Both the position numbers and the translations under genes were made by a program. 64,000 nt of DNA from a virus (taxonomy: Duplodnaviria > Caudoviricetes): IMG/VR virus record IMGVR_UViG_3300034061_004620; one strand, written 5' to 3'. Each line of letters starts with the position of its first letter. Position 1 is the stretch's first letter. Positions 18,218 to 64,000 of the stretch are shown here, one piece after another. The notes beneath the pieces were generated by a model. The model was not told the DNA's origin and did not search any database. It was given only the letters and a program-made list of their open reading frames with translations.

Positions 18218-18859
18218 ATGGCTTTGTACCTAAAAGAGAATCTTACTTTCGACCGAGCTCAGATAGAGGTCCTAACCGAAGACTCTACAATCGGCGAAGG
18301 TAAGAATCTATATATGAAAGGGATATTCATTGAGGGAGGCGTAAAAAATGCCAACCAACGTGTTTATCCTATTTCTGAAATTCAGAAAGCCGTAACACAA
18401 ATCAATGAACAAATTAAAACAGGACATTCTGTTTTAGGCGAAGTTGATCACCCTGATGACCTAAAGATTAATTTGGATCGTGTTAGCCACATGATTACTG
18501 AAATGTGGATGGACGGTCCTTGCGGCCACGGTAAGCTAAAAATCCTGCCAACACCCATGGGCAAGCTTGTCGAAGCAATGATTACTTCAGGCGTTAAATT
18601 AGGTGTTAGTAGTCGTGGTAGTGGCGAAGTTAATGAAAGTACAGGACATGTCAGCGGTTTTGATATTATCACCGTTGACATTGTAGCACAGCCTTCGGCT
18701 CCGCATGCATATCCTAAAGCAATCTATGAGGGCTTGATGAATATGCGTCACGGACACCGAGTGTTAGATGTGGCTCGTGATGCCACACAAGATCAAAAAG
18801 TACAGAAGTACCTGAAAGAAGGCATTACACGCCTTATCAAAGACCTTAAGTTAAAATAG
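18218..18859 (+). CDS. gp21: Prohead core protease
   Basis: GIFIEGGVKNANQRVY, LGEVDHPD, LDRVSH, GVSSRGSG and PSAP motifs. Confidence 0.95.
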   Translation: MALYLKENLTFDRAQIEVLTEDSTIGEGKNLYMKGIFIEGGVKNANQRVYPISEIQKAVTQINEQIKTGHSVLGEVDHPDDLKINLDRVSHMITEMWMDGPCGHGKLKILPTPMGKLVEAMITSGVKLGVSSRGSGEVNESTGHVSGFDIITVDIVAQPSAPHAYPKAIYEGLMNMRHGHRVLDVARDATQDQKVQKYLKEGITRLIKDLKLK

Positions 18860-18869: not shown

Positions 18870-19976
18870 ATGTTATTAGATGCTATCAAACCATTGGTAG
18901 ACAGCGGCATCATAAACGAAGATACGCAACAGGCGATCACGGAAGCGTGGGAAGCAAAGCTTCTTGAAGCTCGTGAAAGTGTTCGTGCAGAACTTCGTGA
19001 AGAATTTGCTACTCGCTATCAGCATGACAAACAAGTTATGGTTGAAGCTCTGGACAAAATGGTAACTGAATCTCTACACAGTGAACTTGAAGAGTTTGCA
19101 GCAGAGAAACAAGCATTAGCAGAAGATCGTGCGAAATTCAAAGTTCACATGATGGAAAGCAGCGAAAGGTTCAACAATTTCTTAGTTGGTAAGTTAGCCG
19201 AAGAAATTAAAGAACTACGTGAAGATCGTAAACAATATGAAAACAGTGTTAGTAAGCTTGAATCATTTGTGATCAAATCACTCGCAGAAGAAATTCAAGA
19301 GTTTGAGCAAGACAAGCAAGCAGTAGTTGAGACAAAAGTTCGTCTAATTGCTGGTGCTAAAGATAAACTTGCCGAACTGCAACAGAATTTCATTGCTCGT
19401 TCTGCAGAACTTGTTAAAGAATCAATTACCAGAAAACTGGAGTCAGAAATGACTCAACTCAAAGAAGACATCCAACTTGCTCGTGAGAACATGTTTGGTC
19501 GTCAAATCTTTGAAGCTTTTGCAAGTGAATTTGCAGTTACTCACCTAAATGAGAACAAAGAAATTCGCAAGCTACAAGCTGTTGTTGCTGCTAAAGAGCA
19601 AGCTTTACAAGAAGCACAAGCTCATGTAGAAAAAGCTGCAATGATTGTTGAATCAAAAGAAAAAGAAATTAAAGTTATTAAGGAATCAGCAGAACGCAAA
19701 GAAATACTTGCAAGTCTGTTAAAACCTTTAAACAAGGAGAAAGCTACAGTAATGAGCGAACTTCTTGAAAGTGTGCAAACTGTAAAGTTACAGAGCGCAT
19801 ACGACAAGTATCTACCAGCTGTTTTAAACAACACAGCACAGAAGCCAACACAGCAAAAAACTGTATTGTCAGAAAGCCGTGTAGAAGTAACTGGTGATAA
19901 ATCTGCTAATTCACTCGCTGTGGAAGAAAACGCCAATAACGTTTTTGAAATCAAGCGATTAGCAGGGCTAAAGTGA
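18870..19976 (+). CDS. gp22: Prohead scaffolding protein
   Basis: Glu-rich coiled-coil protein between gp21 and gp23, ending EIKRLAGLK. Confidence 0.8.
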   Translation: MLLDAIKPLVDSGIINEDTQQAITEAWEAKLLEARESVRAELREEFATRYQHDKQVMVEALDKMVTESLHSELEEFAAEKQALAEDRAKFKVHMMESSERFNNFLVGKLAEEIKELREDRKQYENSVSKLESFVIKSLAEEIQEFEQDKQAVVETKVRLIAGAKDKLAELQQNFIARSAELVKESITRKLESEMTQLKEDIQLARENMFGRQIFEAFASEFAVTHLNENKEIRKLQAVVAAKEQALQEAQAHVEKAAMIVESKEKEIKVIKESAERKEILASLLKPLNKEKATVMSELLESVQTVKLQSAYDKYLPAVLNNTAQKPTQQKTVLSESRVEVTGDKSANSLAVEENANNVFEIKRLAGLK

Positions 19977-20002: not shown

Positions 20003-21214
20003 ATGTCACAAGCACTATTAGAAAGCCGTTGGGGCGAAACAAAAGACGCTCTGCTCGAAGGCTTAAACGGTTCGAAAAGAACCACAATGGGTGTAATTCT
20101 TGAAAATACCCGCAAGCACTTGATGGAAACTGCAACTGCAGGTGCCACTGCTGCTTCAAATGTAGCTACACTTAACCGTGTAATTCTACCAGTAATTCGT
20201 CGTGTAATGCCGACAGTTATTGCTAACGAAATCGTTGGTGTTCAGCCAATGACTGGACCTGTTGCTCAGATCCACACACTACGTGTTCGTTATGCTGACA
20301 ACACTACTGATACCACAAGTGGATACTATCCAGCAGGTGAAAACGGTAGCACAACAGCAGGCGACGAAGCACTAAGTCCGTTCAAGATTGCTGTTGCTTA
20401 TTCTGGTTTAACCAATGGTGGCACTGCTACTAACGGTAGAGCAGCTTCAACAAGCACACTTGAAGGTGTAACAGGTAACAGAATCAACGTTCAGATTCTA
20501 AAGCAAGTTGTGGAAGCCAAGACTCGTAAGTTATCAGCTCGCTGGACTTTCGAAGCTGCACAAGATGCACAAGCCATGCATGGTTTAGACATCGAAGCAG
20601 AAATCATGGCAGCTCTTGCACAAGAGATCACTGTTGAGATCGACCAAGAAATTTTAGGTTCACTACGTAGCCTTGCAGCAACTGAGTTTACATTTGACCA
20701 AGCTGCTGTTAGTGGTACTGCTACTTTCGTTGGTGACGAACACGCTGCTTTGGCTGTTCTAATCAATCGTACAGCAAACCTAATCGCTTCACGTACACGT
20801 CGTGGCGCTGGTAACTGGGCAGTTGTAAGTCCAGCAGCTCTAACTGTGTTACAGAGCGCAACAACTTCAGCATTTGCTCGTACAACTGAAGGTACATTTG
20901 AAGCACCTACTAACACTAAGTTTGTTGGTACACTAAACGGTGCAATGCGTATCTATGTTGACAGCTATGCACGCGACAGCCAGGCTGTTTTAGTTGGTTA
21001 TAAGGGTTCAAGCGAGGCTGATGCAGCCGCGTTCTACTGCCCATATATTCCTCTAATGAGTTCTGGTGTTGTGTTAGATCCAAGTACATTTGAGCCAGTA
21101 GTTGGTTTCATGACTCGTTATGGTTATATCGAGTTAACAAACACAGCGTCATCGTTTGGTAACGCTGCTGACTACCTTGGCGAAATTGCTGTTTCAAATC
21201 TATCGTTCCAGTAA
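20003..21214 (+). CDS. gp23: Major capsid protein
   Basis: VGVQPMTGP, KTRKLSARWTFEAAQDAQAMHGLDIEAE, FYCPYIPL and GFMTRYG motifs. Confidence 0.96.
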   Translation: MSQALLESRWGETKDALLEGLNGSKRTTMGVILENTRKHLMETATAGATAASNVATLNRVILPVIRRVMPTVIANEIVGVQPMTGPVAQIHTLRVRYADNTTDTTSGYYPAGENGSTTAGDEALSPFKIAVAYSGLTNGGTATNGRAASTSTLEGVTGNRINVQILKQVVEAKTRKLSARWTFEAAQDAQAMHGLDIEAEIMAALAQEITVEIDQEILGSLRSLAATEFTFDQAAVSGTATFVGDEHAALAVLINRTANLIASRTRRGAGNWAVVSPAALTVLQSATTSAFARTTEGTFEAPTNTKFVGTLNGAMRIYVDSYARDSQAVLVGYKGSSEADAAAFYCPYIPLMSSGVVLDPSTFEPVVGFMTRYGYIELTNTASSFGNAADYLGEIAVSNLSFQ

Positions 21215-22244: not shown

Positions 22245-22252
22245 CATAAATA
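22245..22252 (+). promoter_or_regulatory. Late promoter (CATAAATA)
   Basis: Heads the fibre gene block. Confidence 0.6.
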
Positions 22253-43816: not shown

Positions 43817-44191
43817 ATGAAAATCAAAGACATTATCATTGAGCAAAAAGGTGTGTTAAAAGATCGGGCACGATTGGCCACACGTGGGTTAAATAAGTTC
43901 TCAGACGCAAAAAAATGGAACGGCGATTACACACTTTATAGACTTGGTTTGGCGTTGGCGTCCACAGACGGTAAAGAAATGCCAGATGTTGACGAAGAAT
44001 CTTGGATTGGTAAGTGGAAACTGGCAGCACCCTATACTCAAGCTGAGCAAGACATGCTAAACTTGGCATACAAAGCAGTGGATGCAAATGTTGAAGATAT
44101 GAATCACGGAGATATGAAAAGTCAAGAATGTCACACTGTGAACAAATCCAGTCCGGTAGCTGTAAACAAAAAGAACAAATATGGTGTTTGA
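43817..44191 (+). CDS. Hypothetical protein, possibly capsid-internal
   Basis: 124-aa ORF starting MKIKDIIIE, which resembles a capsid targeting sequence. Confidence 0.65.
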   Translation: MKIKDIIIEQKGVLKDRARLATRGLNKFSDAKKWNGDYTLYRLGLALASTDGKEMPDVDEESWIGKWKLAAPYTQAEQDMLNLAYKAVDANVEDMNHGDMKSQECHTVNKSSPVAVNKKNKYGV

Positions 44192-45266: not shown

Positions 45267-45274
45267 AATAAATA
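45267..45274 (+). promoter_or_regulatory. Late promoter (AATAAATA) for the sheath gene
   Basis: NNTAAATA motif followed by an AAGGA RBS. Confidence 0.6.
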
Positions 45275-48679: not shown

Positions 48680-48687
48680 GATAAATA
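48680..48687 (+). promoter_or_regulatory. Late promoter (GATAAATA) for the tube gene
   Basis: NNTAAATA motif followed by an AGGAG RBS. Confidence 0.6.
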
Positions 48688-49381: not shown

Positions 49382-49389
49382 CATAAATA
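49382..49389 (+). promoter_or_regulatory. Late promoter (CATAAATA)
   Basis: Lies immediately after the terminator. Confidence 0.6.
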
Positions 49390-52101: not shown

Positions 52102-52599
52102 ATGACCAAAAAACTCTCAGAACTCTTTGATCTTCCTACTAATTTGCCTTCAACAGAATCTGCTGAATCAAACGAAGCTTTGAAAGCCATTGCTGACAAC
52201 AAAGAAATAATTGCCCGAGTAGACGAAGCTATAGACAAAATTGATATAGCATTGCCTACAGTGCGTGATCTCGAAGCCAGTGACCAAGAAATGGACGAAC
52301 TTGCAAACTTGGCTAAAGACAAATTTAACGATCTGATGGATTTAGGCATGAACATGGATCCAAGATTTGGCGGAGTGGTATTTCAAACAGCAGGCACATT
52401 GCTGGGTCATGCTATCACAGCCAAAACAGCCAAAATGGACAAAAAGCTACGTATGGTACAACTACAGCTACAGAAGGCCCGACTGGACCACCAAGTGAGC
52501 AAAGACGCACCAGAGGATCGTCCTATAGATGGACAAGGCATTGTGCTTGACCGTAATGCATTACTGGAACAGATTCTCCAAAAGAACAAAAACACATAA
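52102..52599 (+). CDS. Putative terminase small subunit (gp16-like)
   Basis: Helical protein of suitable size and position, with a PR...V..T...LL segment and C-terminal V.DRNALLEQI. Confidence 0.55.
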   Translation: MTKKLSELFDLPTNLPSTESAESNEALKAIADNKEIIARVDEAIDKIDIALPTVRDLEASDQEMDELANLAKDKFNDLMDLGMNMDPRFGGVVFQTAGTLLGHAITAKTAKMDKKLRMVQLQLQKARLDHQVSKDAPEDRPIDGQGIVLDRNALLEQILQKNKNT

Positions 52600-52602
52600 A
52601 TA
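52595..52602 (+). promoter_or_regulatory. Late promoter (CATAAATA)
   Basis: Heads the internal-protein block. Confidence 0.6.
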
Positions 52603-52624: not shown

Positions 52625-53245
52625 ATGAAAAGTCTCCACGATTATATAGCAGAACGAAACTCAAACTACAGTTTTAGGATCAAGGTAGCAAAACAAAACC
52701 CCAAAGATATCATGGAAGAAATCAAGAACGCTCTTGATGCTTACGAACTTGTAGATATCACCACACCAAAAAGTATGCCGGTACAAGAGCATAGAGAATT
52801 TCCCAAGTGGGGTGCATGCGAATGTTGGCAATTTGAAGCCACAGTGGCATATCCTACTACTACAGTACAAATCGCACAATTACTTAAAGAACGCACAGGC
52901 ATGCAGGCCGAGTGGGTTTGTGTGTACGGCAAACAACAAGCAGATCAAAACGATTATGCCGAAGCTTATGGCAAGGATCACGAAGGCGCACTATTGTTAG
53001 ACGGAGAACTCAAAGACGTACCCGGTGGGCAAGATCTTGTGGCAGAAAAGCGCAAAGACAGCTTATTAAAAGAACTTGATAAGAAGAGTCCATTACTAAC
53101 AGGCCCTGGCGAACCAGACTTAGTGACTACCCACGCAAAAGAAAGAACCAAGCCAGCACAAACAACTAATGCACTTCCGCAAGGTACTAAGAGTCCTGTA
53201 GGTAGCCAACAAAACAAATTACCCCCAATTAAAGGAAGAAAATAA
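52625..53245 (+). CDS. Hypothetical head-internal protein
   Basis: Start moved to ATG 52625 (AGGA RBS). MKSLHDYIAE resembles the T4 capsid targeting sequence MKTYQEFIAE. Confidence 0.7.
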   Translation: MKSLHDYIAERNSNYSFRIKVAKQNPKDIMEEIKNALDAYELVDITTPKSMPVQEHREFPKWGACECWQFEATVAYPTTTVQIAQLLKERTGMQAEWVCVYGKQQADQNDYAEAYGKDHEGALLLDGELKDVPGGQDLVAEKRKDSLLKELDKKSPLLTGPGEPDLVTTHAKERTKPAQTTNALPQGTKSPVGSQQNKLPPIKGRK

Positions 53246-54222
53246 TGAGCAACAATATCTATGACATCTTGAAAAAGATGCAACGCCTTGAGTCACCCAA
53301 GCAGGTTCTTGCAGAAGGTAAAAAAGCAAAACCTGATTTTGCAGACCTTGACAAGGATGGTGACAAAAAAGAGCCTATGAAAAAAGCTGCCAAAGAAAAA
53401 AACAAAGGCGCAATCGCAGAAGCAGTTGCTCGAGTTGAAAAGAATTTAGCAGAAAAGTACATGAGCTACAAGAAACGACTGGGCGAAGAGTCTGACATGA
53501 TTAGAAAAGTTATTCCGGTCAATGTCATTGATGGCCCTGGCGGTTACGAAGAAGCACAAAAGCGTATTAAAGATCATGAATCATCAAAAGTAAAGAGACA
53601 AGAAATGCCAGGTAAAGAGTTACCTCCAGTAGACGATAGATCTCGACCAGCCGACAAGCCCAAGACTAAAGAAGTAGATGAAAGTGGCTTACAAGCGTAT
53701 CTTGGCAAAAAGAAGTATGGCAAAGAAGGTATGCAGGCATTACAGAAAGCAGGCCGCGAAGGTGCAAGTAAAGAAAAAATGGCCAGCATTCGTGCCCGTC
53801 ATGACAAGATGGATGAAGACGCATACAATGAAGACATGCTGAGTCCTAAGCAACAAAAAATTGCTCGTATGGCCGGGGATCCTAAAAAAATTGACGCCAA
53901 CGATCTAAAAGCTTTGCGAGCCGGTAAGAACAAAAAAGCCGAAGGCAATGCTTTTAGTGGCGCTTTAGATGCAGCAAGAGACGCTGGCAAATCTGAATTT
54001 GAAGTCGACGGAAAAAGCTATAAAGTAAAAGAAGGCTGGGACGAAATGCTAAAAGCACAAAAAGAACGTAGCGGTCCACAACCCAGTGGCGGATCAGGCA
54101 TTAAGCAAGGCAAACGTTATGGTGGCGGCGCACAAACCGACGAACCAGACACAGATAACGAAACAGGTGAAGTAGCTAAAAAAGGCCGCGGTCGCCCTAA
54201 AAAAGATAAATTTGCAAAATGA
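53245..54222 (+). CDS. Modular charged head-internal protein with a C-terminal AT-hook
   Basis: K/E-rich. Contains KPDFADLDKDGDKKE and ends KKGRGRPKK. Confidence 0.7.
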   Translation: MSNNIYDILKKMQRLESPKQVLAEGKKAKPDFADLDKDGDKKEPMKKAAKEKNKGAIAEAVARVEKNLAEKYMSYKKRLGEESDMIRKVIPVNVIDGPGGYEEAQKRIKDHESSKVKRQEMPGKELPPVDDRSRPADKPKTKEVDESGLQAYLGKKKYGKEGMQALQKAGREGASKEKMASIRARHDKMDEDAYNEDMLSPKQQKIARMAGDPKKIDANDLKALRAGKNKKAEGNAFSGALDAARDAGKSEFEVDGKSYKVKEGWDEMLKAQKERSGPQPSGGSGIKQGKRYGGGAQTDEPDTDNETGEVAKKGRGRPKKDKFAK

Positions 54223-57200
54223 AAATTCGTGAAATAGCCAAACAGTCTTCATTACAAGAAGGTGCAATATCTAACAAAGTGTTACCTGGTTTGAGTTTTG
54301 CTGACGCTGGTATCAGAGTGGCTGAAAAAGATTATCCCGGTGCCGCCATTGCTGGCACAGCAGCTGGGCTAAGTCTAATACCAACAATACCCACACAAGC
54401 TGCCAGTATTGGTTTAGAGGCATTTAATCAATTACGCGACGAAGCTGCGCGACGCGGTGGTTGGGGAAATCTTGGCAGAGATATGATGAAGTCTGTCAGG
54501 GATGGTGATTTTGATCATATCCATATGCTACCAGAAGAATTTGACAAATTAGATCAATTAGAACGAGCAGGCAAACTTGACGAAGGTGGTTTAACAAGTA
54601 TTCCAGGCTGGATAGCCAAATACGGTGATGATGCTGTTCGGTGGTTAAAAACTGTCGGAAGACGCGATAAACCAGATGCTCCTGCTTCTAAGCCAGAAGT
54701 ACCAGATGCCTCGGTACCTTCTAAGAAGCCATACACCAGAGACGAAGATTTGCCTATTGTGGGGCGAGATACACCTACTCCACCACCGGCCTCAACTCCT
54801 GTAGAATTACCAAAACAAAAACGATTTGAATCAGACAAAGCATATTTAGACAGATTACAAAAAATGGGTCCTGAGTTTGTGCAAAAGAAAACACAAATGG
54901 ATCAAGCTCTGATTAGTGCTAATCAAGCAAAAGAGTTAAGTAAAGGACCAGTTAGAAAAGGATTAGAAACAACTGGAAAATTCTTAGTAAGGAACCCAAT
55001 AACATGGGGTGCAGGGGCATACGGAGGATACGAAGCAGCTAAAGAATACGGACCAGATATAGGACGAAAATCGATTGAATGGTGGCGACAAGGTCCTGAA
55101 AAAGAAATTCTCCAAAAAGCTCCTGAAGGCGAATTGCTGTCAGACATTATAAAAGGTGTAACAGCACAACCTCCAGCCAATGCACCGGCTCCGGTGACAC
55201 CAGAAAAACAGCAAGAACTCCCACCGCATATAGATCCTGCCACCGGCAAAACAAGGGACCAAGGCGCCAGACTTGATGACAAAGAAAAAACATTGACTGA
55301 GAAATATCAACAGTTTCTCAATGACGATAAAAAGCCGCAATACACCAAGGAACAGTTTATTCAATTGGCTGCAAAATATGCCAAGCAGTATGATGTTCCA
55401 TTGCCTGTAGTCTTACATGCCATGCGTAAGGAAACTGGTGCGTATGATGCAAACACCGCAGCCACAGTTCTTGGACCCAAAACCAAATATGGACAAGCAG
55501 TTGGTGTCATGCAGTTGATGCCATCATTCTTTAAAACATTAAAACCTGAAGATCTAACAAATCCAGATCGAAACATTGAAGCTGGTACAAAATTTTTAGC
55601 AAACTTGTACAAGACATACGGCAGTGCCGAAGCAGCCCTGGCAGCATACAACGCCGGACCATATAATAAAAAATTTAAGGCTTGGCTTAAATCCAATGAT
55701 CCAAAAGATTTACCGGCACAGACCAGAGAATATCTCTACGGCGATCCACGAAAGAAAACTGTTGGCTATGTTGATGATGTAGCACAACAAGTTGCGCTAT
55801 TGAATCCACCGAGCACCAGAGATAAAGTTGTAAAGGTAGCTACAGACGTATTGGCTGCTGCCACAGGATCAGGCGACGCACAAGCAGCAAACAGCAAAAA
55901 ATCTAAAGCTGAAGTCATCAGCGGCCCTCAATATCCACCTCACGGTACACCAATAGAGAAAGTACAACTACCTGGTCATTGGACCAATCCTGTATTGAAA
56001 CCTTTAGATGGTAGAGTACACATGCAGTTGCAAGATTTAAGTGGCGAGTTTAAAGCGGCCTTAGATAAAGCCATGGCCGATTATGCCAAAGACAATCCAG
56101 GAGTTACAATTACTGTAACCAGCGGAGTGAGAACTCCCGAAGATCAAAAGGCTTTGGCCAAGCGAGCAGCAATAGAATATGAAAAAATGAAAAGGGGAGA
56201 GCCGAACAATTATATACCTGCCTCAAAAGAATTAGCCGGACATGCAGGATATGCCATTGACATGAACACTCCTGATCTGGTAAAATTTTCCAAATGGTTG
56301 CGAAAAAACGATCCATATGACAAAAAAAATCCAAGCAACACAAAATACGGATTGCAAGACGGATTCGAAATAGCAGACCGTGTGCATTTACAATTGAGAG
56401 GCTACGAGCAATTAGATTCAGAAAAGGCCAGAAGAGCATACAATAAAAACTTGCCTATAGATAAACAAATTCTAACTGCCTCTGATTGGGAATCGTATGT
56501 ACAACGCACAGAAGCCGAAAAACTGGCTTTAGCGCAGCCTAAAGACAAGAAACTAACCGATCCCGGACTTGGTGGTGCTCCAGAAGCCCAGGCTGATACA
56601 ACATCAAAAGCAGATAACAGTAAACCTCTCAAATTTCCTTCTATTAGATCAGATATACCATCCGTTGATTACCAGTCTCAAGGTGATGACACACCGGCTA
56701 AATCAGCTGAAAAGAAAGCAGAAAAGCCAGCTGATAAACCTGCCGACAAAGACAAATCTAAAGCAAAAACTCGCGTTACAACAGATGCAACGGGAAGAGA
56801 AACAACATATACTCAAAATGAAAAAGGCCAATGGGTCGATCCTCGAGGCAATATTATGCCCGCACCCGAAAAACCAGGATCAAGAAAAGATCTTGATATC
56901 ACTGACAAAGGCGGAGACCCCAGTGCAGCAGATTTAGAAAAATCAAGAAACATAACCGGTCGTAAAGATCCTCTCATCGATCCTGACACTGGTTTTCCTA
57001 CCACAGAAAAAGCCTTACGCGACAAACTTACTCAGCGTGCCGCCGACGAAAAGGCAGCAGCAGAACGAGAAGCCAAGCGTATTGCTGACTTAGAAAAAAT
57101 TCAACGAGATGCAGAAGCCAGGAAAAAGGCCGAAAAACCAGCCGACAAAGAAGCAGGTAAAGCAGATGCAGGCACAGGTCTTGCTGGCACAGACACAGGC

Positions 57201-58040
57201 AAAGACAAAGGTAAAGCAGATAAACAACAACGTGTGCCAGCTGCACCTGCTGCTGAAGTTCCTGCTGCAGACGCAAAAGATAAGTCTGCTAAAATAAATG
57301 TACGTAAAGAATTTGAAAAGGCCTTTGCAGCAGCAAGAGCCGCACAGGCGTTAAAGACCGGAAAAGGCAGTGGAGGAACATTCACATGGACAGATCCACG
57401 AACTGGTAAAGAAAGTACATATACTACAGACTACGGTGATGAGGTCAAAGATAAAAAGTCAGTAAAGGTGGTACCTAAAGCTGAACCTAAAGCCGAACCA
57501 AAAGCCGATGCTGGTGCTGACACATACTGGGTAGATCCAAGACTATCAAAAGTGCCATACGATGTTATACGCAAGCAGATTAAACCTGATTATACAGTGG
57601 ATGCAGATCCGGATGCAATAAAAGTTCCACGAGCTACAGAACCTGATACAGATACAAAATTGCCATCACAGACACGTAGTGTGAGCGAGCCAGACCGTGC
57701 CAATGTATTACGTTCCACAGACGGCACCCCAGTTACATCAGGCACAGGCGAACCGTGGGGTACCGGCACCAGTACCAAGAAAGATATAGAACGTGCCAAG
57801 GATGAATTGCAGAAAAAAATTGATGATGAAAAATTCAAAAAAGAATTGCAAAAAATTAGTCCTGATTTGTCAGAACCCGAACAAGGTAATAGATGGATTG
57901 ACAAATGGAATCAAGGCATAGAAGCACTAACTGGTAAAGAAAGAATGACACCCGATGACATGAACAGGATACGTGTTCCAGAATCGGTAAATACAGAACT
58001 GAATGACATATTATGGTTGGCTGGAAGGGTAAAAAGATAA
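54219..58040 (+). CDS. 1273-aa internal protein with lytic transglycosylase (SLT) and peptidase M15-like domains
   Basis: SLT: AMRKETG...GVMQLMP...NIEAGTKFL...ALAAYNAGP. M15-like: ITVTSGVRTPEDQ...GH.G.AID...DRVHLQL. Confidence 0.8.
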   Translation: MKIREIAKQSSLQEGAISNKVLPGLSFADAGIRVAEKDYPGAAIAGTAAGLSLIPTIPTQAASIGLEAFNQLRDEAARRGGWGNLGRDMMKSVRDGDFDHIHMLPEEFDKLDQLERAGKLDEGGLTSIPGWIAKYGDDAVRWLKTVGRRDKPDAPASKPEVPDASVPSKKPYTRDEDLPIVGRDTPTPPPASTPVELPKQKRFESDKAYLDRLQKMGPEFVQKKTQMDQALISANQAKELSKGPVRKGLETTGKFLVRNPITWGAGAYGGYEAAKEYGPDIGRKSIEWWRQGPEKEILQKAPEGELLSDIIKGVTAQPPANAPAPVTPEKQQELPPHIDPATGKTRDQGARLDDKEKTLTEKYQQFLNDDKKPQYTKEQFIQLAAKYAKQYDVPLPVVLHAMRKETGAYDANTAATVLGPKTKYGQAVGVMQLMPSFFKTLKPEDLTNPDRNIEAGTKFLANLYKTYGSAEAALAAYNAGPYNKKFKAWLKSNDPKDLPAQTREYLYGDPRKKTVGYVDDVAQQVALLNPPSTRDKVVKVATDVLAAATGSGDAQAANSKKSKAEVISGPQYPPHGTPIEKVQLPGHWTNPVLKPLDGRVHMQLQDLSGEFKAALDKAMADYAKDNPGVTITVTSGVRTPEDQKALAKRAAIEYEKMKRGEPNNYIPASKELAGHAGYAIDMNTPDLVKFSKWLRKNDPYDKKNPSNTKYGLQDGFEIADRVHLQLRGYEQLDSEKARRAYNKNLPIDKQILTASDWESYVQRTEAEKLALAQPKDKKLTDPGLGGAPEAQADTTSKADNSKPLKFPSIRSDIPSVDYQSQGDDTPAKSAEKKAEKPADKPADKDKSKAKTRVTTDATGRETTYTQNEKGQWVDPRGNIMPAPEKPGSRKDLDITDKGGDPSAADLEKSRNITGRKDPLIDPDTGFPTTEKALRDKLTQRAADEKAAAEREAKRIADLEKIQRDAEARKKAEKPADKEAGKADAGTGLAGTDTGKDKGKADKQQRVPAAPAAEVPAADAKDKSAKINVRKEFEKAFAAARAAQALKTGKGSGGTFTWTDPRTGKESTYTTDYGDEVKDKKSVKVVPKAEPKAEPKADAGADTYWVDPRLSKVPYDVIRKQIKPDYTVDADPDAIKVPRATEPDTDTKLPSQTRSVSEPDRANVLRSTDGTPVTSGTGEPWGTGTSTKKDIERAKDELQKKIDDEKFKKELQKISPDLSEPEQGNRWIDKWNQGIEALTGKERMTPDDMNRIRVPESVNTELNDILWLAGRVKR
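57986..57993 (+). promoter_or_regulatory. Possible late promoter (GGTAAATA) inside the end of the upstream gene
   Basis: About 50 nt upstream of ATG 58042. Confidence 0.4.
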
Positions 58041-58041
58041 A

Positions 58042-61000
58042 ATGAACATGCGAGAACTAATAAATCTAATAGAGGCACCGGCTCCTAAACAAGGTGTTAC
58101 TGGACAAAAACTTGCTCAAACAAGTGGCGGCCAATTTATGAATCGAGCCGATAGAACCAATCAAGCCAAAGTTGATGCAGCGTTAGGCCCAGGATTCAAA
58201 GCAGGAAGTGCAGCAGCCAATCAGGCATTAGCTAAAAAATTCAGTCAGCCACAAGCTGTACCGGCAGCAAACACAGCAAGTGCTCAACAATCAGCAGCAT
58301 TAGACACTTCCAAGGCAAATGCAATTGGTGGGCAACAGGCAGCAACCACGGCAGCAGCACCAGAACCAGACACAAGAGGTGCAGCAGCGATGGCAAGTAG
58401 ATCGGCCCCGGCCGCTGCAAATACAGAGCCAGTTCAAGCAGCAGCTCCTGCTCAAACTTCAGATCAGATTGCAACCGCTGCACTAAATGCACAAGATTCA
58501 ACACCACAAGCTGACACAAGAGGTGCAGCAGCAATGGCCAGTAGATCAACAAGTACTCCTGCTCAAACTTCAGATCAGATTGCAACCGCTGCACTAAATG
58601 CACAAGATTCAACACCACAAGCTGACACAAGAGGTGCAGCAGCAATGGCCAGTAGATCAACAAGTACTCCTGCTCAAACAACTCCGGATCAAATACCAAC
58701 TCAAACAGCAACAGCTCAAAGTATAGGTGCTACTAATTTGCAAGGCGAAAATCCAGCAGCACCAGCACAACAAAATACAGCAGCACCTGCTCAAGCAGGC
58801 GGATATGCTCAGAGTGCCACTGCCGCCACCAATAATCCTGCACCCAAGAGTGACTATCAGCCTGTAGCTGGAAGTTCTAATTTAGTCTCAAGAACCTCCG
58901 ATAAAATTGCAGCAGACGCAAAAGCTGGGCCTGGTGGGCAAAATCCTGCAACAAAAAGTTATGCCAGTTTTGGTGATTTTGCCAGTGCTGTAGGAAACAA
59001 AGTTAAAGGTTTTTTTGGTGGCAATCAACCAGCACCAGACGCAACTGCAGGTACTGGTCCTAATTTAGGTACAGGAACATTAGGCAGCACACCAAATGCA
59101 CAACAGCCGCCTGCATTTGTGCCGTCAGCTACAACAGCCGGCACCCCAGCTGCGTTTGGTAAAGTTGCCGAAGCTGATGCGCCAGTGAATTCCGCACCTC
59201 AGCAGCCGGCAGCAAAAACTCAAAAAGCACCAAGCATGTACGATGTTGACAAGGCCAACAGAAAAGAAATAGCAAGTCAATTTGACCCTAATTCAACTTA
59301 TGTAAATCCCCATGACAAAGATACACGAGCGTCTGCTCCAGGATCAAAGGCAGTAAACACCATGGCTGACTTTGAAGAAGATGTTGATCATGCATTGGCA
59401 GAGATGATGCGCTTGAGTGGTTTAACTTTGAGTGAAAAAGCACCACCAGGCAAGAAGGCCGAACGCATGGTTAAACACATTAAAAAAGGTTATGCCAAGG
59501 ACGGTAAACTCACAGACAAAGAAAAGTCAATTGCATTTGCAACTGCATGGAAACAGCACAACAAAGAAAAGGTAAACGAAGGCATGGACATTATGTTAGA
59601 CGAAGATGGGCATACACTAAAACATATCGTTAATAGATTCAAACATGAAACTAAAAATTTCATGAATACAGGATTTATGGCAGAGAACTTGTATGATGCA
59701 TTATATGATTATTATCTGGATAGAGGCGACATGCCTTACGGTATTGCCAAGGCAAGAGAAGGTGATCCATACGAGTGGGTAGAAGAACACTTCTATGCAG
59801 ACATGGGCAGTCAAATGAGTGAAGGTGCTGTAGCAGAACAAACTGTGGACCCACTGAGTGAATTAGCACGTTTGGCTGGATTGTCAGAAGACGGTCCTGG
59901 ATCTGCTATGCTAAATGCCCCAAAGAAAGACACTGATTCATTTGCAGACAGAATGAGAAGTGCAGGAAAAGAAATTAGGCGTACGATTGATCGCGCAACA
60001 TTGCCAGCTGCAATGAGAGCAGATTATGATAGAATTGAAGCAGAAAAAGAAAGAGCCTCAGCTCCTGTAGCAACACCAGCAGTCGCTAAAGCTGATGCAT
60101 TTAAAGATGCAATGGGTTCTGGATCCAACAAAGCACAAGCAGATGACAAATTGAAAGAAATGGGCGACAGTCCATTGGCAAGACTCAATCAAATGCCACA
60201 AACTAAAGGACAAGAACCAAGTTCGGGTGCAGCGAGCTCGTTCGCACCACGTGAGCGCGAGCGTGTGGTTAGCCCCAAGATTGACAAATACGAAAAAGAC
60301 AAAGAACGTGCAGAAAAAGCCAGAAGAGATATTGTTGATAGAGAAAGTCCAGATGCTAATACATTTGGTCGTAAAATAGGCAAAGCAGTATCAGAACCAG
60401 TTGCAGCAATCAAGAGTGCATGGCACGGTGCAACAGATGCCTGGGATCATACTATGGGCAATGATACAGCCCCAGATCCAAAACCACCAGTTAGTGTTGT
60501 TAACAAAAGAGACTGGAAAGGTGACAAGGATAATCCTGCACTAAAAGAAAATGACGAGTTAAATCGTATGCGTAAAATTGCCGGACTACAGGAATGTGGA
60601 GATATGGGCATGGAACGCGATCATATGCAACAAAAAGATCGATTGAATGTTACCACAAACATGAGCAGTGATGGTACCAAGGACGTCACTATCAATGCAC
60701 AAGGTGACGCCGCAGAAGATCTACTGTCTATGTTGAAACTGGCAGGTATGGAAAGACATCATCAGCCTACAATGGTCATGATTGACCGCGATGAAGAAAT
60801 GATGGAACGAGAAGAAACTCCTGTACCTGATGATGGTAATGTATTAGGTGGTATGGGAGATTTTGAACAAATAGATGCAATAGACGAAGCCAAGAAGAAG
60901 CGTATTACACGTCATAGCAACACACCCGACGAAGAATATCAAACCGTAGATAGTATTCTACGTCAAGGCAATGATCTCAACAGAGAAAAACGCCAGTACA

Positions 61001-61575
61001 AGAAAGAATACCCCGGCGACAATCCAATGTCTGAAAGCATGCTTGATCAAGACTTAAACGACATCCTTGAGAGCATCTTGATTCGCGAAGAACCTATTCC
61101 AACTACTACAGATCCTGAGACAGGACGAGTAAAAGCAACATTACCCTCAAATTTTTTCCGTCCTGGTAAAAAACGTGATCGTGCCAGTCAAGAGATACCA
61201 ATGGAACCTGAATCGCCAGAATCTCGTGTAACTGGGCCACGCAGTATGAAAATACCTGGTGAGCGAACAGGTACAGAAAACTTTGGTAAAGACAAAGAAG
61301 TTGACGAAGGTTGGGAAGATGTAAAAACAGGTGTATCTAACTTTGTTGGAGATCTTTTTAACACAGACGACAGTATACGCAGAAGAAGCGGGCAGTTTCG
61401 TGATCTTGAAGCTATGCAACAAAAGTATAAACCTGGAACTCCAGAGTATGATCAATTGGAAATGCGTAAGACCAAGCAAAAAGAAAGGTATTACGGAGAC
61501 CAAGGTGAAGTGGTAGGTAAAGACGGCGAACCAATTAAAGTATTACCACCTGATCAATGGAAAGGTGGCAAGTGA
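58042..61575 (+). CDS. 1177-aa low-complexity modular internal protein
   Basis: A/Q/P/T-rich N-terminal half followed by charged modules. Starts MNMRELINLIE. Confidence 0.75.
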   Translation: MNMRELINLIEAPAPKQGVTGQKLAQTSGGQFMNRADRTNQAKVDAALGPGFKAGSAAANQALAKKFSQPQAVPAANTASAQQSAALDTSKANAIGGQQAATTAAAPEPDTRGAAAMASRSAPAAANTEPVQAAAPAQTSDQIATAALNAQDSTPQADTRGAAAMASRSTSTPAQTSDQIATAALNAQDSTPQADTRGAAAMASRSTSTPAQTTPDQIPTQTATAQSIGATNLQGENPAAPAQQNTAAPAQAGGYAQSATAATNNPAPKSDYQPVAGSSNLVSRTSDKIAADAKAGPGGQNPATKSYASFGDFASAVGNKVKGFFGGNQPAPDATAGTGPNLGTGTLGSTPNAQQPPAFVPSATTAGTPAAFGKVAEADAPVNSAPQQPAAKTQKAPSMYDVDKANRKEIASQFDPNSTYVNPHDKDTRASAPGSKAVNTMADFEEDVDHALAEMMRLSGLTLSEKAPPGKKAERMVKHIKKGYAKDGKLTDKEKSIAFATAWKQHNKEKVNEGMDIMLDEDGHTLKHIVNRFKHETKNFMNTGFMAENLYDALYDYYLDRGDMPYGIAKAREGDPYEWVEEHFYADMGSQMSEGAVAEQTVDPLSELARLAGLSEDGPGSAMLNAPKKDTDSFADRMRSAGKEIRRTIDRATLPAAMRADYDRIEAEKERASAPVATPAVAKADAFKDAMGSGSNKAQADDKLKEMGDSPLARLNQMPQTKGQEPSSGAASSFAPRERERVVSPKIDKYEKDKERAEKARRDIVDRESPDANTFGRKIGKAVSEPVAAIKSAWHGATDAWDHTMGNDTAPDPKPPVSVVNKRDWKGDKDNPALKENDELNRMRKIAGLQECGDMGMERDHMQQKDRLNVTTNMSSDGTKDVTINAQGDAAEDLLSMLKLAGMERHHQPTMVMIDRDEEMMEREETPVPDDGNVLGGMGDFEQIDAIDEAKKKRITRHSNTPDEEYQTVDSILRQGNDLNREKRQYKKEYPGDNPMSESMLDQDLNDILESILIREEPIPTTTDPETGRVKATLPSNFFRPGKKRDRASQEIPMEPESPESRVTGPRSMKIPGERTGTENFGKDKEVDEGWEDVKTGVSNFVGDLFNTDDSIRRRSGQFRDLEAMQQKYKPGTPEYDQLEMRKTKQKERYYGDQGEVVGKDGEPIKVLPPDQWKGGK
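58445..58679 (+). repeat. Exact 111-bp tandem duplication (37 aa)
   Basis: CTCCTGCTCAAAC starts at 58445, 58556 and 58667. Confidence 0.9.
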
Positions 61576-62633
61576 TGAAAACGTTTCGCGAATATCTCAA
61601 CGAAGCAGAACTGACAGAAGGAAATCCTGCTGTTGGGGATATTTTTGAGTTAGAAATAGCCAGAGACGAAACTTTGCTCGAAACTTATATTGTTGATGTG
61701 TTTGAGGATGGAATAGTATTAGAAGCAGACGACACCATGATGAGAATTTTAACGCATGTTGGATATATAACAGAAGATTCAAACATGCCCACTGCTCGAG
61801 ATTCTATCAGTCCAATACATTCAAATGTGAACAGAGACAAAAGCTCCGATGACGACCTCATGGACAAAGACTCAGGTGCCACACCACCTGCTCGTCCTAC
61901 ACGCGATGCGGTAGACACTAAGCCGCTAACCGAGCCAAAAAACAAAAAAGATCCCAAAGACTACATGGTGCATGAGGCGCCCGAAGGATGGGGACAAGAT
62001 ACCATGACCAACAAAGACGGTTCGGTGATGAAATACAACCCCGATGATGACAGTTACAGCATGGTATCTCCTCCTACGGTAAAGCCTACTAAAACGTCAA
62101 TGTCGGTGATTGATACTCATAGATCACAAGATCGCAGCTCGTCTAAAGGAGATAGTACACACAAGCAGGAATTTACATCTGCTTCGTTTGCAAGAGATCC
62201 CAAAACTGGCGCAGGCGATTATTACATATCTCGATCAACAGATGATGATTACGACGATGACTTTCAGCAAGATGTAAGTGCCCCTTGGATGAACTATACG
62301 CAAGCCAAAGCAAAATATGATTCAGATCTTATGTTTGGTAAAAAAACAGCCATGCCTCAAGGGCCAATGAGTCAGTTCAGAGCACCAACCAATGAAGCCA
62401 AATATCAAGGTCGTGAAGTTCCGTTAGGCAAGAAGATGAAGGGCGATGTTAAGAAGAGTAAAGTGTATGTAAGAGGACCCAAAGGTAATGTAGTTAAAGT
62501 GAACTTTGGCGATCCTAACATGACAATCAAAAAGTCAAATCCAGCCCGTCGTAAAAGTTTCAGAGCAAGACACAATTGCGCCAATCCAGGACCAAGATGG
62601 AAAGCAAGGTACTGGTCATGTAGGAGTTGGTAA
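61575..62633 (+). CDS. Modular internal protein with a basic Cys/His/Trp C-terminal domain
   Basis: Start moved to ATG 61575 (TGATG overlap), giving MKTFREYLNE. Ends RRKSFRARHNC...ARYWSCRSW. Confidence 0.75.
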   Translation: MKTFREYLNEAELTEGNPAVGDIFELEIARDETLLETYIVDVFEDGIVLEADDTMMRILTHVGYITEDSNMPTARDSISPIHSNVNRDKSSDDDLMDKDSGATPPARPTRDAVDTKPLTEPKNKKDPKDYMVHEAPEGWGQDTMTNKDGSVMKYNPDDDSYSMVSPPTVKPTKTSMSVIDTHRSQDRSSSKGDSTHKQEFTSASFARDPKTGAGDYYISRSTDDDYDDDFQQDVSAPWMNYTQAKAKYDSDLMFGKKTAMPQGPMSQFRAPTNEAKYQGREVPLGKKMKGDVKKSKVYVRGPKGNVVKVNFGDPNMTIKKSNPARRKSFRARHNCANPGPRWKARYWSCRSW

Positions 62634-63418
62634 TGACAGATCCAAGATTTTTTAGACAGTATTTAGAGATATTAAAAGAAGGCCCTCCTGCAGGTGTTGG
62701 TCCTAATGCACCTATAAAACAACCTGTGCAGCAGCCAGCTAATACCAGTCAAGAACCAAGCCAATTTCAACAGGCCAAGGATGCAGTAGGGCAACAATAT
62801 CAAAATTACAAAGATATATCGGGACAACTTGATCAAGGTGTACAACAAGGATTAATCAGCAAAGATGTGGCCGATAAAACAAGAAGTTATGCACAAGGTT
62901 CAATGTTAAGAGGTGGTTGGGAGGCAGGTAAAGCAGCAATGCAAGGTCGTGATCCATCATCGGCCTATGTAGGTAGCTTGATTAGATCAATGGGTAATTT
63001 GGCTGCTGATTCTGGTCTTGATGATGCTGCAAAAAAACTTGGACAATTTGCAAGTCAGTATCGAGGTCCTAATGCCAAAGATATAACAAAAGATCCCGCA
63101 TACCTAAAAGCATCACCGGAACAACAAGCACAAGCCCGTAAAGATTTTGAAGCAATTAAATCATTGCCTGATGATGAATACAATTATATTTTTGGTGGCA
63201 ATGCGTTTAAGGAACGTGGCGCACAGGCAGCTCAAGTTGGTCAAGACATGATTGATCAAAAAGATTGGGGTACAGGTCGTAGCGCAGGGTTTTCACCAAA
63301 AGCAAATGAACTTTTTGGATTAGATCCAACTCGTCAGGCAACTGATGCAGAAATGCAAGCGGCAGCAACAGGTACCAACGAAGAATTAGATAGACTCAAA
63401 CAACTTATTAGAAGATAA
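62633..63418 (+). CDS. Hypothetical internal protein
   Basis: Starts MTDPRFFRQYLEILKE (TAATG overlap) and ends EELDRLKQLIRR. Confidence 0.7.
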   Translation: MTDPRFFRQYLEILKEGPPAGVGPNAPIKQPVQQPANTSQEPSQFQQAKDAVGQQYQNYKDISGQLDQGVQQGLISKDVADKTRSYAQGSMLRGGWEAGKAAMQGRDPSSAYVGSLIRSMGNLAADSGLDDAAKKLGQFASQYRGPNAKDITKDPAYLKASPEQQAQARKDFEAIKSLPDDEYNYIFGGNAFKERGAQAAQVGQDMIDQKDWGTGRSAGFSPKANELFGLDPTRQATDAEMQAAATGTNEELDRLKQLIRR

Positions 63419-63873
63419 TGAGCGATCCAAGATTTTTTAGACGATACTTAGATATTCTTGACGAACAACCTGTCACTGCAAACATTGATGACTACACAAG
63501 CGTGACTGTTGATCCTACAGCAAAAAATCTTGCAATGCAAACCAAGATTGGGGACTTGGATCTCAAAGCAACGCATGACCGTTCCGCAATCCCGGCCAAT
63601 CAAATTTCAGCCAATTACCAAGTGGACCCTAAATTAAAGGTTGGCGGCACACACACTCAAGCAGGATATAAAGGACAAATGACTCCTACCACTCAAATTT
63701 CAGCCAACTACGACGATCCTGATGTTGGTAAAGCTGATCTACAAGTAGATAAAGGTGCCATGTTCCAGGGTGCAGGAAAAAATATTCAGCAAGGAAATCC
63801 CGCTATCGTAACTGCCAAATTTACAAACCCACAAGGCCAAACAGCCACTTACAATACAAACAGAAACTTATAA
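63418..63873 (+). CDS. Hypothetical internal protein
   Basis: Starts MSDPRFFRRYLDILDE, nearly identical to the N-terminus of the upstream gene. Confidence 0.7.
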   Translation: MSDPRFFRRYLDILDEQPVTANIDDYTSVTVDPTAKNLAMQTKIGDLDLKATHDRSAIPANQISANYQVDPKLKVGGTHTQAGYKGQMTPTTQISANYDDPDVGKADLQVDKGAMFQGAGKNIQQGNPAIVTAKFTNPQGQTATYNTNRNL

Positions 63874-63882: not shown

Positions 63883-64000
63883 ATGAAAAAATTATTAGCA
63901 ATTCTATTATTAGCACCTACTCTTGCACTTGCTCAAAAACAACCACAAGGTGTTATGTATGATGCACAAATTGTGAGAGTAAACGATGGCGACACAGTAG
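63883..64000 (+). CDS. 5' part of a signal-peptide-bearing SNase/thermonuclease-like protein
   Basis: MKKLLAILLLAPTLALA-QKQ...IVRVNDGDTV, with an AAGGA RBS. Truncated by the window edge. Confidence 0.6.
   Translation, partial: MKKLLAILLLAPTLALAQKQPQGVMYDAQIVRVNDGDTV

What the first reader, a model, noticed from the sequence alone, without database searches (positions are those of the whole stretch)
52625..63873. ~11-kb block of probable capsid-packaged internal proteins sharing a T4-like capsid targeting sequence
Seven consecutive coupled late genes start with a short helix ending in Glu: MKSLHDYIAE, MSNNIYDILKKMQRLE, MKIREIAKQSSLQE, MNMRELINLIE, MKTFREYLNE, MTDPRFFRQYLEILKE and MSDPRFFRRYLDILDE. 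MKIKDIIIE at 43817 has the same form. T4 internal proteins use MKTYQEFIAE, which gp21 removes after Glu. The cargo here is about 3,700 aa, far larger than T4 IPI-III, and would be delivered at infection.
Basis: partly seen in the sequence, partly recalled or inferred. Interest (0 to 1): 0.7.

Follow-up and report, generated by a model that had tools for sequence, protein, structure and literature searches.

The report
Leader-tagged virion cargo operon, jumbo phage
An uncultured T4-related giant phage has a seven-gene late operon whose very variable proteins, including a large cell-wall-cutting enzyme, all begin with short tags like the one phage T4 uses to load proteins into its head, so they are probably packed in the capsid, although no experiment shows this.

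Summary
Observation confirmed. Genes at 52625-63873 form one tightly coupled operon behind a late-type promoter motif. Each product starts with a short leader ending in Glu, and 6 of 7 match M-x(4-13)-[LI]-x-E against 5 of 48 other genes (Fisher p = 1e-4).

The window is from a jumbo myophage of the PA5oct/RaK2 clade, with a T4-type head module. That module includes an S77 (gp21-like) protease that keeps the catalytic His and Ser.

In 46 metagenomic relatives the leaders are kept at the amino-acid level, while the protein bodies swap domains and change length several-fold. Syntenic proteins of PA5oct and CBB are virion proteins by mass spectrometry.

New here: a second motif, the "LAG helix", forms the invariant C-terminal end of the clade's scaffolding protein. 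It also ends every cell-wall-hydrolase protein of the block and occurs four times inside the 1177-aa protein.

Interpretation partly supported. Loading into the prohead, with the leader then cut off, is the best reading (about 0.6). Head location, cleavage and delivery into the host are all untested. Glu10 of the first protein is not conserved, and the second protein probably cleaves at Glu24, not Glu16.

This scan has noted similar T4-like leaders on other phage DNA before. Novelty: a new variant of a known kind.

The parts
52596..52602 (+). Late-promoter-like motif ATAAATA, 22 nt before the start codon of gene A
   Evidence: All 13 copies in the window lie in intergenic DNA just upstream of genes (MCP region, sheath, tube and others). 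None lies inside the block.
52625..53245 (+). Gene A, 206 aa. It has the leader MKSLHDYIAE, then a ferredoxin-like domain, then a disordered Lys/Pro tail. It is conserved across the clade.
   Evidence: Homologues PA5oct gp202 and CBB_210 (13 peptides, 60% coverage) are virion proteins.
53245..54222 (+). Gene B, 325 aa, pI 9.5, 18% Lys. Residues 1-11 of the leader are nearly invariant. The likely cleavage site is L-A-E at residue 24.
   Evidence: Length ranges from 233 to 668 aa in relatives.
54219..58040 (+). Gene C, 1273 aa, with a 14-aa leader ending in LQE, followed by cell-wall-degrading domains and long disordered stretches
   Evidence: Relatives carry SLT, GH19, LysM, PG_binding_1 or GDSL domains at this position.
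55365..55679 (+). SLT lytic transglycosylase domain of C (aa 383-487)
   Evidence: Pfam PF01464, E = 1.1e-16, 60.9 bits.
56055..56312 (+). Possible VanY/M15 peptidase domain of C (aa 613-698)
   Evidence: Pfam VanY E = 0.0032, 17.7 bits, below the 25-bit cut-off. No PDB sequence match. Tentative.
57999..58037 (+). C-terminal LAG helix of C (..LNDILWLAGRVKR, the end of the protein)
   Evidence: This is the same motif as the scaffold's C-terminal end.
58042..61575 (+). Gene D, 1177 aa. It has an 11-aa leader ending in LIE and an Ala/Thr/Gln-rich repeat region. Folded modules follow, separated by four LAG helices at aa 452, 605, 840 and 894.
   Evidence: A perfect 111-bp tandem duplication lies at 58445-58679.
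59428..59589 (+). DUF6321-like module of D (aa 463-516)
   Evidence: About 75% identical to small proteins of T4-like cyanophages. Those proteins themselves begin MKTFKQFRE. phrog_30733, E = 8e-11.
61575..62633 (+). Gene E, 352 aa, with the leader MKTFREYLNE. The N-terminal domain is conserved. The C-terminal 80-aa module is widespread in aquatic phages.
62633..63418 (+). Gene F, 261 aa, with a 16-aa leader ending in LKE
   Evidence: The leader holds the protein's only L/I-x-E site.
63418..63873 (+). Gene G, 151 aa, with a 16-aa leader ending in LDE
43817..44191 (+). Gene H, 124 aa, with the leader MKIKDIIIE, lying after the gp14-like neck gene
   Evidence: The leader is kept in relatives as MKI-x-[DE]-I-[IV]-x-E. 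The same leader heads a 73-aa virion protein next to the portal gene in PA5oct.
17253..18203 (+). gp67-like acidic prohead-core protein, with the leader MNKYEQLIE
   Evidence: It holds the position of T4 gp67/68 between the portal and protease genes. Its N-terminus resembles T4 gp67.
18218..18859 (+). Prohead protease of the gp21 / Peptidase_S77 family
   Evidence: phrog_207, E = 2e-56. Pfam S77, E = 3e-25. 38% identical to T4 gp21 and keeps the His and Ser that are Ala in PDB 5jbl.
18870..19976 (+). Scaffolding protein with 20 L/I-x-E sites. Its C-terminal end (nt 19941-19973) is the LAG helix ..FEIKRLAGLK.
20003..21214 (+). Major capsid protein (gp23 family), with L-M-E at residue 42 just before the mature region

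Best explanation
The seven genes encode proteins that are built into the prohead and stay inside the finished capsid. This is shown only to the level of 'virion-associated' for homologues.

Proposed mechanism (inferred):
1. Each protein carries a short N-terminal amphipathic leader. It plays the role of the T4 capsid-targeting sequence and docks the protein on the scaffolding core during prohead assembly.
2. Several of the proteins also carry one or more copies of the 'LAG helix', the peptide that ends the scaffolding protein itself. This probably uses the scaffold's own contact inside the shell.
3. The gp21-family protease then removes the leader at its L/I-x-E site. It may also cut the 1177-aa protein D after its LAG helices.
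4. The cargo leaves with the DNA at infection. It includes a basic Lys-rich protein, a large cell-wall hydrolase and modular disordered proteins. The hydrolase would widen the path through the cell wall. This last step is the least supported.
For: Phage background:
- The window has a T4-type head module: portal, gp67-like protein, S77 protease with catalytic His and Ser kept, scaffold and gp23-family MCP.
- The scaffold and the protease are enriched in L/I-x-E sites: 5.4 and 4.7 per 100 aa, against 2.3 and 1.1 expected.
- The MCP keeps an L-x-E just before its mature region across the clade.

Leaders:
- E and A match the real T4 leaders read from NC_000866 at positions 1-4, 7, 8 and 10. Positions 4 and 7 matter for targeting and 8 and 10 for processing (PMC9026906).
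- Head-core genes of this phage and of PA5oct carry the same leader types.
- Enrichment in the block has p = 1e-4.
- In relatives, leader identity against the next 40 aa is 0.85 vs 0.51 for B, 0.70 vs 0.18 for D2 and 0.82 vs 0.24 for F/G. Synonymous changes are present.
- When the hydrolase protein is split into two genes, each half has its own leader.

LAG helix:
- It forms the C-terminal end of the scaffold in 49 of 49 relatives, and in PA5oct and Atu_ph07. CBB and RaK2 have a degenerate form.
- It is also the C-terminal end of 16 distinct hydrolase-type proteins.
- From gene A onward there are 75 hits in 68.6k aa, against 4 in 100k aa upstream.

Virion data:
- PA5oct gp202, 203, 205 and 206, and CBB_210, 213 and 214, were detected in virions by MS. 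gp203, CBB_213 and CBB_214 carry LAG helices.

Other:
- D's DUF6321 module is homologous to cyanomyophage proteins that start MKTFKQFRE.
- One late promoter motif precedes the operon.
Against: - There are no data on where in the virion any of these proteins sits, or on their mature N-termini.
- A's Glu10 is not conserved, and PA5oct gp202 has no Glu there.
- B's first Glu is not in an L/I-x-E context.
- The leaders form at least five different classes rather than one tag. Only two of them closely resemble T4's.
- A peptidoglycan hydrolase has no obvious use inside the head of a contractile-tailed phage, whose tube is thought to deliver its contents past the wall.
- Most of the cargo is not small and basic like the T4 IPs (pI 5.4-9.5).
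- The motif definitions were made after seeing the data.
- The leader families in relatives were collected partly by leader pattern, which inflates the leader identity figures.
Confidence: 0.6

Rival explanations
1. The products are virion proteins that sit outside the head lumen, for example in the tail-tube lumen, the baseplate or the neck. The hydrolase protein C would then act like a tape-measure or tail-tip lysin. The leaders and LAG helices would be docking peptides for tail assembly or for a chaperone.
For: - The block lies just downstream of the sheath, tube and tube-like genes.
- SLT and other wall-binding domains are typical of tape-measure and tail-tip proteins. The best database matches to C's SLT region are annotated as tape-measure or lytic tail proteins.
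- The MS data show only 'virion'.
Against: - The length of C-type proteins ranges from 495 to 1490 aa among relatives. The window and a near-identical strain (A 100% identical) differ by in-frame indels of 49 to 130 aa. A length ruler should not behave this way.
- A separate tape-measure candidate lies next to the baseplate hub gene at 12350-14623 (a lead only).
- The LAG tail is shared with the head scaffold, not with any tail protein.
- The same leader types sit on head-core genes.
- The block's neighbours are the head-completion gene and, in relatives, a gene that looks like the large terminase by eye only, with no family search run.
Confidence: 0.2
2. The conserved N-termini are not sorting signals. 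They would be kept for gene expression (translational coupling, mRNA structure at the start) or as homology arms for exchanging gene cassettes between phages.
For: - Starts overlap the preceding stop codons.
- The bodies are exchanged between relatives while the gene boundaries stay put.
Against: - Conservation is at the peptide level, with many synonymous codon changes: 17 DNA versions give 2 peptide versions for B.
- Leaders end in the protease motif.
- The same peptide classes recur on genes at unlinked places: 17253 and 43817 in the window, and the PA5oct gene next to the portal.
Confidence: 0.07
3. The leaders are recognition handles for a modifying enzyme such as one of the phage's radical-SAM proteins, as proposed elsewhere in this scan for a serine-rich tag.
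For: The window encodes radical-SAM proteins at 3388-4926 and 8593-9807. Earlier notes report more of them in this genome.
Against: - The serine-rich tag of those reports is absent from all six frames of the window.
- The leaders here have no Cys/Ser/Thr-rich core.
- The radical-SAM genes lie about 43 kb away, in a different module.
Confidence: 0.03

Closest known systems
Phage T4 internal proteins IPI, IPII, IPIII and Alt, with their capsid-targeting sequence, processed by gp21
   Same: - A short N-terminal leader ends in L/I-x-E, and two leaders match T4's almost position by position.
- A gp21-family protease and a T4-type head module are present.
- The cargo is hypervariable behind a conserved leader.
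- The genes are late genes.
   Different: - The cargo is 151-1273 aa (3745 aa in all) against 95-193 aa for the IPs (Alt is 682 aa).
- There are several leader classes.
- A second signal (the LAG helix) is shared with the scaffold, and T4 gp22 lacks it.
- The cargo includes cell-wall hydrolases.
- All seven genes form one operon next to the head-completion gene.
Ejection (E) and inner-body proteins of phiKZ-like giant phages (phiKZ, 201phi2-1, SPN3US)
   Same: Many large proteins are packed in the head of a jumbo myophage. A gp21-related protease processes them after Glu, at several sites per protein.
   Different: - There is no sequence homology.
- The cleavage motif there is S/A/G-x-E (PMC9026906), whereas here it is L/I-x-E.
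- It is a different phage clade.
Internal core / ejection proteins of podophages (T7 gp16 with its SLT domain; P22 gp7, gp16, gp20)
   Same: A large internal virion protein carries a lytic transglycosylase and hydrophobic segments, and is released at infection to cross the envelope.
   Different: Those phages have short non-contractile tails and no protease-removed leader. No homology was detected beyond the SLT domain.
C-terminal coat-binding helix of scaffolding proteins (P22 gp8, phi29 gp7; from my own knowledge)
   Same: A short conserved helix at the very C-terminal end of the scaffold is the element expected to hold the coat protein.
   Different: Here the same helix is copied onto non-scaffold proteins. 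Binding to the MCP was not shown.
Unassigned 'structural proteins' PA5oct gp202-206 and CBB_210-214 (GAP32_204-208)
   Same: They are syntenic, partly homologous (gene A), and carry the same leader and LAG features.
   Different: They are shorter and lack SLT domains. The published papers assign them no location or function.

Membership tests
T4-type CTS-bearing internal head proteins | N-terminal 10-19-aa propeptide resembling MKTYQEFIAE or MKTFKEF.., with hydrophobic or aromatic residues at positions 4 and 7 | tested here: met
   E (MKTFREYLNE) and A (MKSLHDYIAE) were compared with the leaders read from the T4 record. The other five leaders are of the same kind but in different sequence classes.
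T4-type CTS-bearing internal head proteins | The leader ends in a gp21 cleavage site, L/I-x-E | tested here: met
   6 of 7 meet this at the first Glu, and B has a conserved L-x-E at residue 24. A's Glu10 is variable in relatives.
T4-type CTS-bearing internal head proteins | The phage encodes a gp21-family (S77) prohead protease with catalytic residues | tested here: met
   Pfam S77, E = 3e-25. 38% identity to T4 gp21, with His and Ser kept.
T4-type CTS-bearing internal head proteins | Conserved leader on divergent, exchangeable cargo | tested here: met
   46 related loci.
T4-type CTS-bearing internal head proteins | The protein is physically inside the capsid | not testable with these tools
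   Only 'virion-associated' by MS, and only for PA5oct and CBB homologues.
T4-type CTS-bearing internal head proteins | The leader is absent from the mature protein, and the protein is ejected into the host | not testable with these tools
   No N-terminal or infection data were found.
T4-type CTS-bearing internal head proteins | Small basic proteins | tested here: not met
   Sizes are 151-1273 aa and pI is 5.4-9.5. Only B (9.5) and C (8.9) are basic.
Tail tape-measure protein (considered for gene C) | Length is conserved among phages with the same tail, with one such protein per genome beside the tail or baseplate genes | tested here: not met
   C-type proteins range from 495 to 1490 aa, with large indels between near-identical strains. 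Another candidate lies at 12350-14623.
SLT lytic transglycosylase (PF01464) | Match above Pfam's gathering score | tested here: met
   60.9 bits against a 21.3-bit cut-off, at aa 383-487 of C.
VanY / peptidase M15 | Match above Pfam's gathering score | tested here: inconclusive
   17.7 bits against a 25-bit cut-off. No PDB sequence match.
Scaffold-type coat-binding C-terminal helix | The same conserved helix at the extreme C-terminus as in the phage's own scaffold | tested here: met
Scaffold-type coat-binding C-terminal helix | The helix binds the major capsid protein | not testable with these tools
   No binding data exist. The one modelling job gave no answer and is listed under Tried and rejected.
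Radical-SAM-linked serine-rich N-terminal tag (earlier notes of this scan) | A serine-rich 16-aa tag next to a dedicated radical-SAM gene | tested here: not met
   The tag is absent from all six frames of the window.

The most novel reading that the evidence does not exclude
This clade of jumbo myophages loads proteins into the capsid with two portable signals. One is a protease-removable N-terminal leader. The other is a copy of the scaffold's own C-terminal helix. With them it packs and ejects giant modular proteins, among them exchangeable cell-wall hydrolases. A contractile-tailed phage would then breach the wall partly with enzymes stored in its head, as podophages do.
Probability: 0.3. 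Interest if true: 0.7.

Novelty: new variant of a known kind. Interest (0 to 1): 0.55.

Why it matters
Proteins that a phage injects along with its DNA are its first tools against host defences and barriers. Outside T4 and the phiKZ group they are mostly unknown.

If these leaders and the LAG helix are loading signals, the internal cargo of a whole clade of jumbo phages could be read from sequence alone. That clade includes PA5oct, RaK2 and CBB, and many lake phages.

It would also assign a role to a set of 'structural proteins' that have none so far. The scaffold-derived helix would be a second, previously undescribed way to address proteins to a capsid, and such tags can be used to package foreign proteins.

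Tried and rejected
- Megablast of the block against 50,697 phage records found no match.
- tblastn of C and D found only the SLT domain and the DUF6321 module.
- PDB sequence searches for A, for C 560-760 and for the 757-aa protein found nothing useful.
- The AlphaFold model of A (aa 1-115 confident) gave only generic ferredoxin-like matches (S6, PII, ACT), so no function follows from it.
- Complex prediction of the MCP with the C-terminal 74 aa of C gave a score of 0.00 and no verdict.
- The supplements of the PA5oct paper are not held, so peptide-level coverage could not be checked.
- Literature searches found no paper on targeting leaders in the PA5oct/RaK2 clade and nothing on the LAG motif.
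- The strict T4 late promoter TATAAATA is not enriched, with 3 sites. The shorter ATAAATA is the motif that marks gene starts.
- 'Polyprotein' reading: only D (12 L/I-x-E sites, about twice the expected number) fits. 34 of 55 internal or N-terminal LAG helices in relatives are followed within 7 residues by [LIVM]-x-E. C is not enriched. This is kept as a sub-hypothesis for D only.
- The radical-SAM tag rival was rejected.
Full report
**What the window is.** The 64-kb window has no DNA-level match among deposited phages, and no whole genome is held for it.

Its proteins place it in the T4 superfamily:
- a gp55-like late sigma factor, gp46/47-like nuclease subunits, and a gp20-type portal
- a gp21-type protease, a scaffold, and a gp23-family MCP
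- gp13/14/15-like neck and terminator proteins, sheath, tube, and a gp4-like head-completion protein

The MCP is 65-70% identical to those of the PA5oct, Vibrio 2.275.O, Sinorhizobium Phosso and Erwinia jumbo phages. The scaffold is 44% identical to PA5oct's and 32-33% identical to those of the RaK2, CBB and 121Q phages. Earlier notes of this scan call it a roughly 346-kb uncultured lake phage (I did not check this).

The genes, with lengths and start positions:

| Gene | Start | Length (aa) |
|---|---|---|
| A | 52625 | 206 |
| B | 53245 | 325 |
| C | 54219 | 1273 |
| D | 58042 | 1177 |
| E | 61575 | 352 |
| F | 62633 | 261 |
| G | 63418 | 151 |

- Successive genes overlap by 1-4 nt or are 1 nt apart.
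- The heptamer ATAAATA occurs 13 times in the window. Every copy lies in intergenic DNA just upstream of a gene, including the sheath and tube genes. The copy nearest the MCP gene (21282-21288) lies downstream of it, before the gene at 21313; the MCP start is preceded only by the shorter TAAATA.
- One copy lies at 52596-52602, before A, and none lies inside the block. The seven genes therefore look like one late operon.
- A pattern written after seeing the data, M-x(4-13)-[LI]-x-E in the first 20 residues, fits 6 of 7 block genes and 5 of 48 others (p = 1e-4). Two of those five others are the gp67-like core protein and the scaffold.

**Comparison with T4, from the T4 record itself.**
- IPII and IPIII start MKTYQEFIAE, and IPI starts MKTFKEF...
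- Alt, gp67, gp21, gp22 and gp24 also start with short helices ending in L/I-x-E.
- E (MKTFREYLNE) and A (MKSLHDYIAE) match the IP leader at positions 1-4, 7, 8 and 10. According to the review PMC9026906, positions 4 and 7 matter for targeting and positions 8 and 10 for processing.
- The ORF at 17253 sits where T4 has gp67/68, resembles gp67, and starts MNKYEQLIE.

The protease:
- It belongs to Pfam S77 (E = 3e-25) and is 38% identical to gp21.
- It keeps His and Ser at the two positions that are Ala in the crystallised T4 enzyme 5jbl.
- Like the scaffold, it is enriched two- to four-fold in L/I-x-E sites.

The MCP keeps an L-x-E just before the segment that aligns with the mature gp23 N-terminus. 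This holds in this phage, PA5oct, CBB and RaK2. T4-like cleavage specificity is therefore plausible for the clade.

**Relatives.** A search with A found 46 IMG/VR loci. The gene order is constant: gp4-like gene, an acidic 165-aa gene, A, B, one or two hydrolase-type genes, a D-type gene, E, zero to two F/G-type genes, then a secreted nuclease.

- A is 47-89% identical to the window's copy across the 13 aligned relatives. E's N-terminal domain is also conserved.
- The other bodies change several-fold in length: B from 233 to 668 aa, and the C-type from 495 to 1490 aa.
- The C-type domain content also changes: SLT, GH19, LysM, PG_binding_1, GDSL, and weak holin-like hydrophobic hits.
- The leaders stay. 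Leader identity against the next 40 residues is 0.85 vs 0.51 for B, 0.57 vs 0.27 for D, 0.70 vs 0.18 for the D2 class and 0.82 vs 0.24 for F/G.
- This comparison is partly circular, because the families were gathered by leader pattern. Synteny gives the same assignment.
- B's first 11 codons have 17 DNA versions and 2 peptide versions. Selection therefore acts on the peptide.
- When the hydrolase protein is split into two genes, each half begins with its own MK-x-x-[DE]-I leader.
- A contig whose A is 100% identical to the window's differs by in-frame indels of 96 aa (B), 49 aa (C) and 30, 37 and 130 aa (D).
- D also holds a perfect 111-bp tandem duplication.

- A's Glu10 is E, Q, S, A or D in relatives and is absent in PA5oct gp202. 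CBB and Vibrio homologues, however, have I-L-T-E there.
- B's Glu16 follows R-L, which is not a canonical site. A conserved L-x-E followed by Gly or Ser lies at residue 24.
- The leaders form at least five classes.

**A second shared element.**
- The motif h-x-x-h-x-x-[LIVM]-[AS]-G-h, where h is a hydrophobic residue (the LAG helix), is the very C-terminal end of the scaffold (..FEIKRLAGLK).
- It is invariant in 49 of 49 metagenomic scaffolds. It is present in PA5oct and Atu_ph07, degenerate in CBB and RaK2, and absent from T4 gp22.
- The same helix is the C-terminal end of C and of 16 distinct hydrolase-type proteins of relatives. In those proteins only the last 20 or so residues are conserved.
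- It occurs four times inside D.
- It occurs in the MS-confirmed virion proteins PA5oct gp203, CBB_213 and CBB_214.
- In the window there are 5 hits in the block's 3745 aa, against 2 in the other 16,637 aa. One of those two is the scaffold itself.
- In relatives there are 75 hits from A onward, against 4 upstream.
- By analogy with scaffolds of other phages (my own knowledge), this end is the likely coat-binding element. Copying it onto cargo would be a second way into the prohead.
- A complex prediction gave no verdict, so binding is untested.

**Other links to heads.**
- PA5oct's 73-aa virion protein next to the portal gene starts MKINDIITE. That is the leader of H (43817) and of C-type proteins.
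- D's residues 463-516 are about 75% identical to small proteins of T4-like cyanophages, which themselves begin MKTFKQFRE.
- The syntenic proteins PA5oct gp202, 203, 205 and 206, and CBB_210 (13 peptides, 60% coverage), 213 and 214, are virion proteins by ESI-MS/MS. The papers assign them no location.

**Rivals.**
- *Tail-lumen or tape-measure role for C.* The SLT domain and the nearby tail genes suggest it. Against it stand the length variation, the scaffold-type tail, and a separate tape-measure-like protein at 12350-14623 (a lead only).
- *Expression or recombination constraint.* Synonymous variation and the recurrence of leaders at unlinked loci argue against it.
- *Radical-SAM recognition tag, raised by earlier notes of this scan.* It does not apply, because that serine-rich tag is absent from the window.

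**Verdict.** The pattern is real and non-random. The best reading is a T4-type loading and processing system, extended in this jumbo-phage clade to very large, modular, fast-changing cargo and supplemented by a scaffold-derived helix. Head location, cleavage and ejection are inferred, not shown.

Similar T4-like leaders were noted by this scan on other phage DNA. The link to the scaffold's C-terminus and the hydrolase cargo are the particular points of this case.

Noticed in passing
window 12312-12318, 21282-21288, 21609-21615, 22246-22252, 30987-30993, 34199-34205, 45268-45274, 48681-48687, 49383-49389, 52596-52602 (+); 1418-1424, 12333-12339, 45210-45216 (-): ATAAATA occurs 13 times, fewer than the 20 expected by chance. 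Every copy is intergenic and lies 20-40 nt upstream of a gene start. It is probably the late promoter core of this phage, one base shorter than T4's TATAAATA.
   Followed up: partly
window 12350-14623 (+): A 757-aa protein beside the gp26-like baseplate hub gene has no PHROG or Pfam match. By protein-language-model features it resembles tape-measure families (score 0.93), so it is a candidate tail-length ruler.
   Followed up: partly
window 63883-64000 (+), runs off the end: The gene after the block starts with a signal peptide followed by a staphylococcal-nuclease-like V-N-D-G-D-T motif. It is conserved at this position in most relatives, so it looks like a secreted or periplasmic phage nuclease.
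   Followed up: no
window 52102-52599 (+): An acidic 165-aa protein (phrog_16202) always precedes the block. Its PA5oct (gp201) and CBB (CBB_209) homologues were not found in virions, so it may be an assembly factor for the block proteins.
   Followed up: no
window 18218-18859 (+), C-terminus: The protease ends in a conserved amphipathic helix (..RLIKDLKLK) that loosely resembles the scaffold's LAG tail. It may be the protease's own prohead-targeting tail.
   Followed up: no
window 3388-4926 and 8593-9807 (+): Two radical-SAM-domain proteins lie among the gp46/47-like recombination nuclease genes.
   Followed up: no
window 62391-62630 (+), C-terminal 80 aa of E: A small Lys/Arg/Cys-rich module (phrog_7595) is shared at 42-72% identity with pelagiphages, roseophages, Flavobacterium and Methylophilales phages, and even Nitrosopumilaceae spindle-shaped viruses.
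   Followed up: partly
L136 (S-RSM4) 478-1647 and L137 (S-H9-1) 380-1842: T4-like cyanophages carry a small array of genes starting MKDFKKLRE, MKYQKP and MKTFKQFRE next to a structural-protein gene. This looks like an unannotated internal-protein locus.
   Followed up: no
window 14655-15197 and 10398-10832 (+): Homing-endonuclease-like genes are inserted between the tape-measure candidate and the portal gene, and after the radical-SAM cluster.
   Followed up: no
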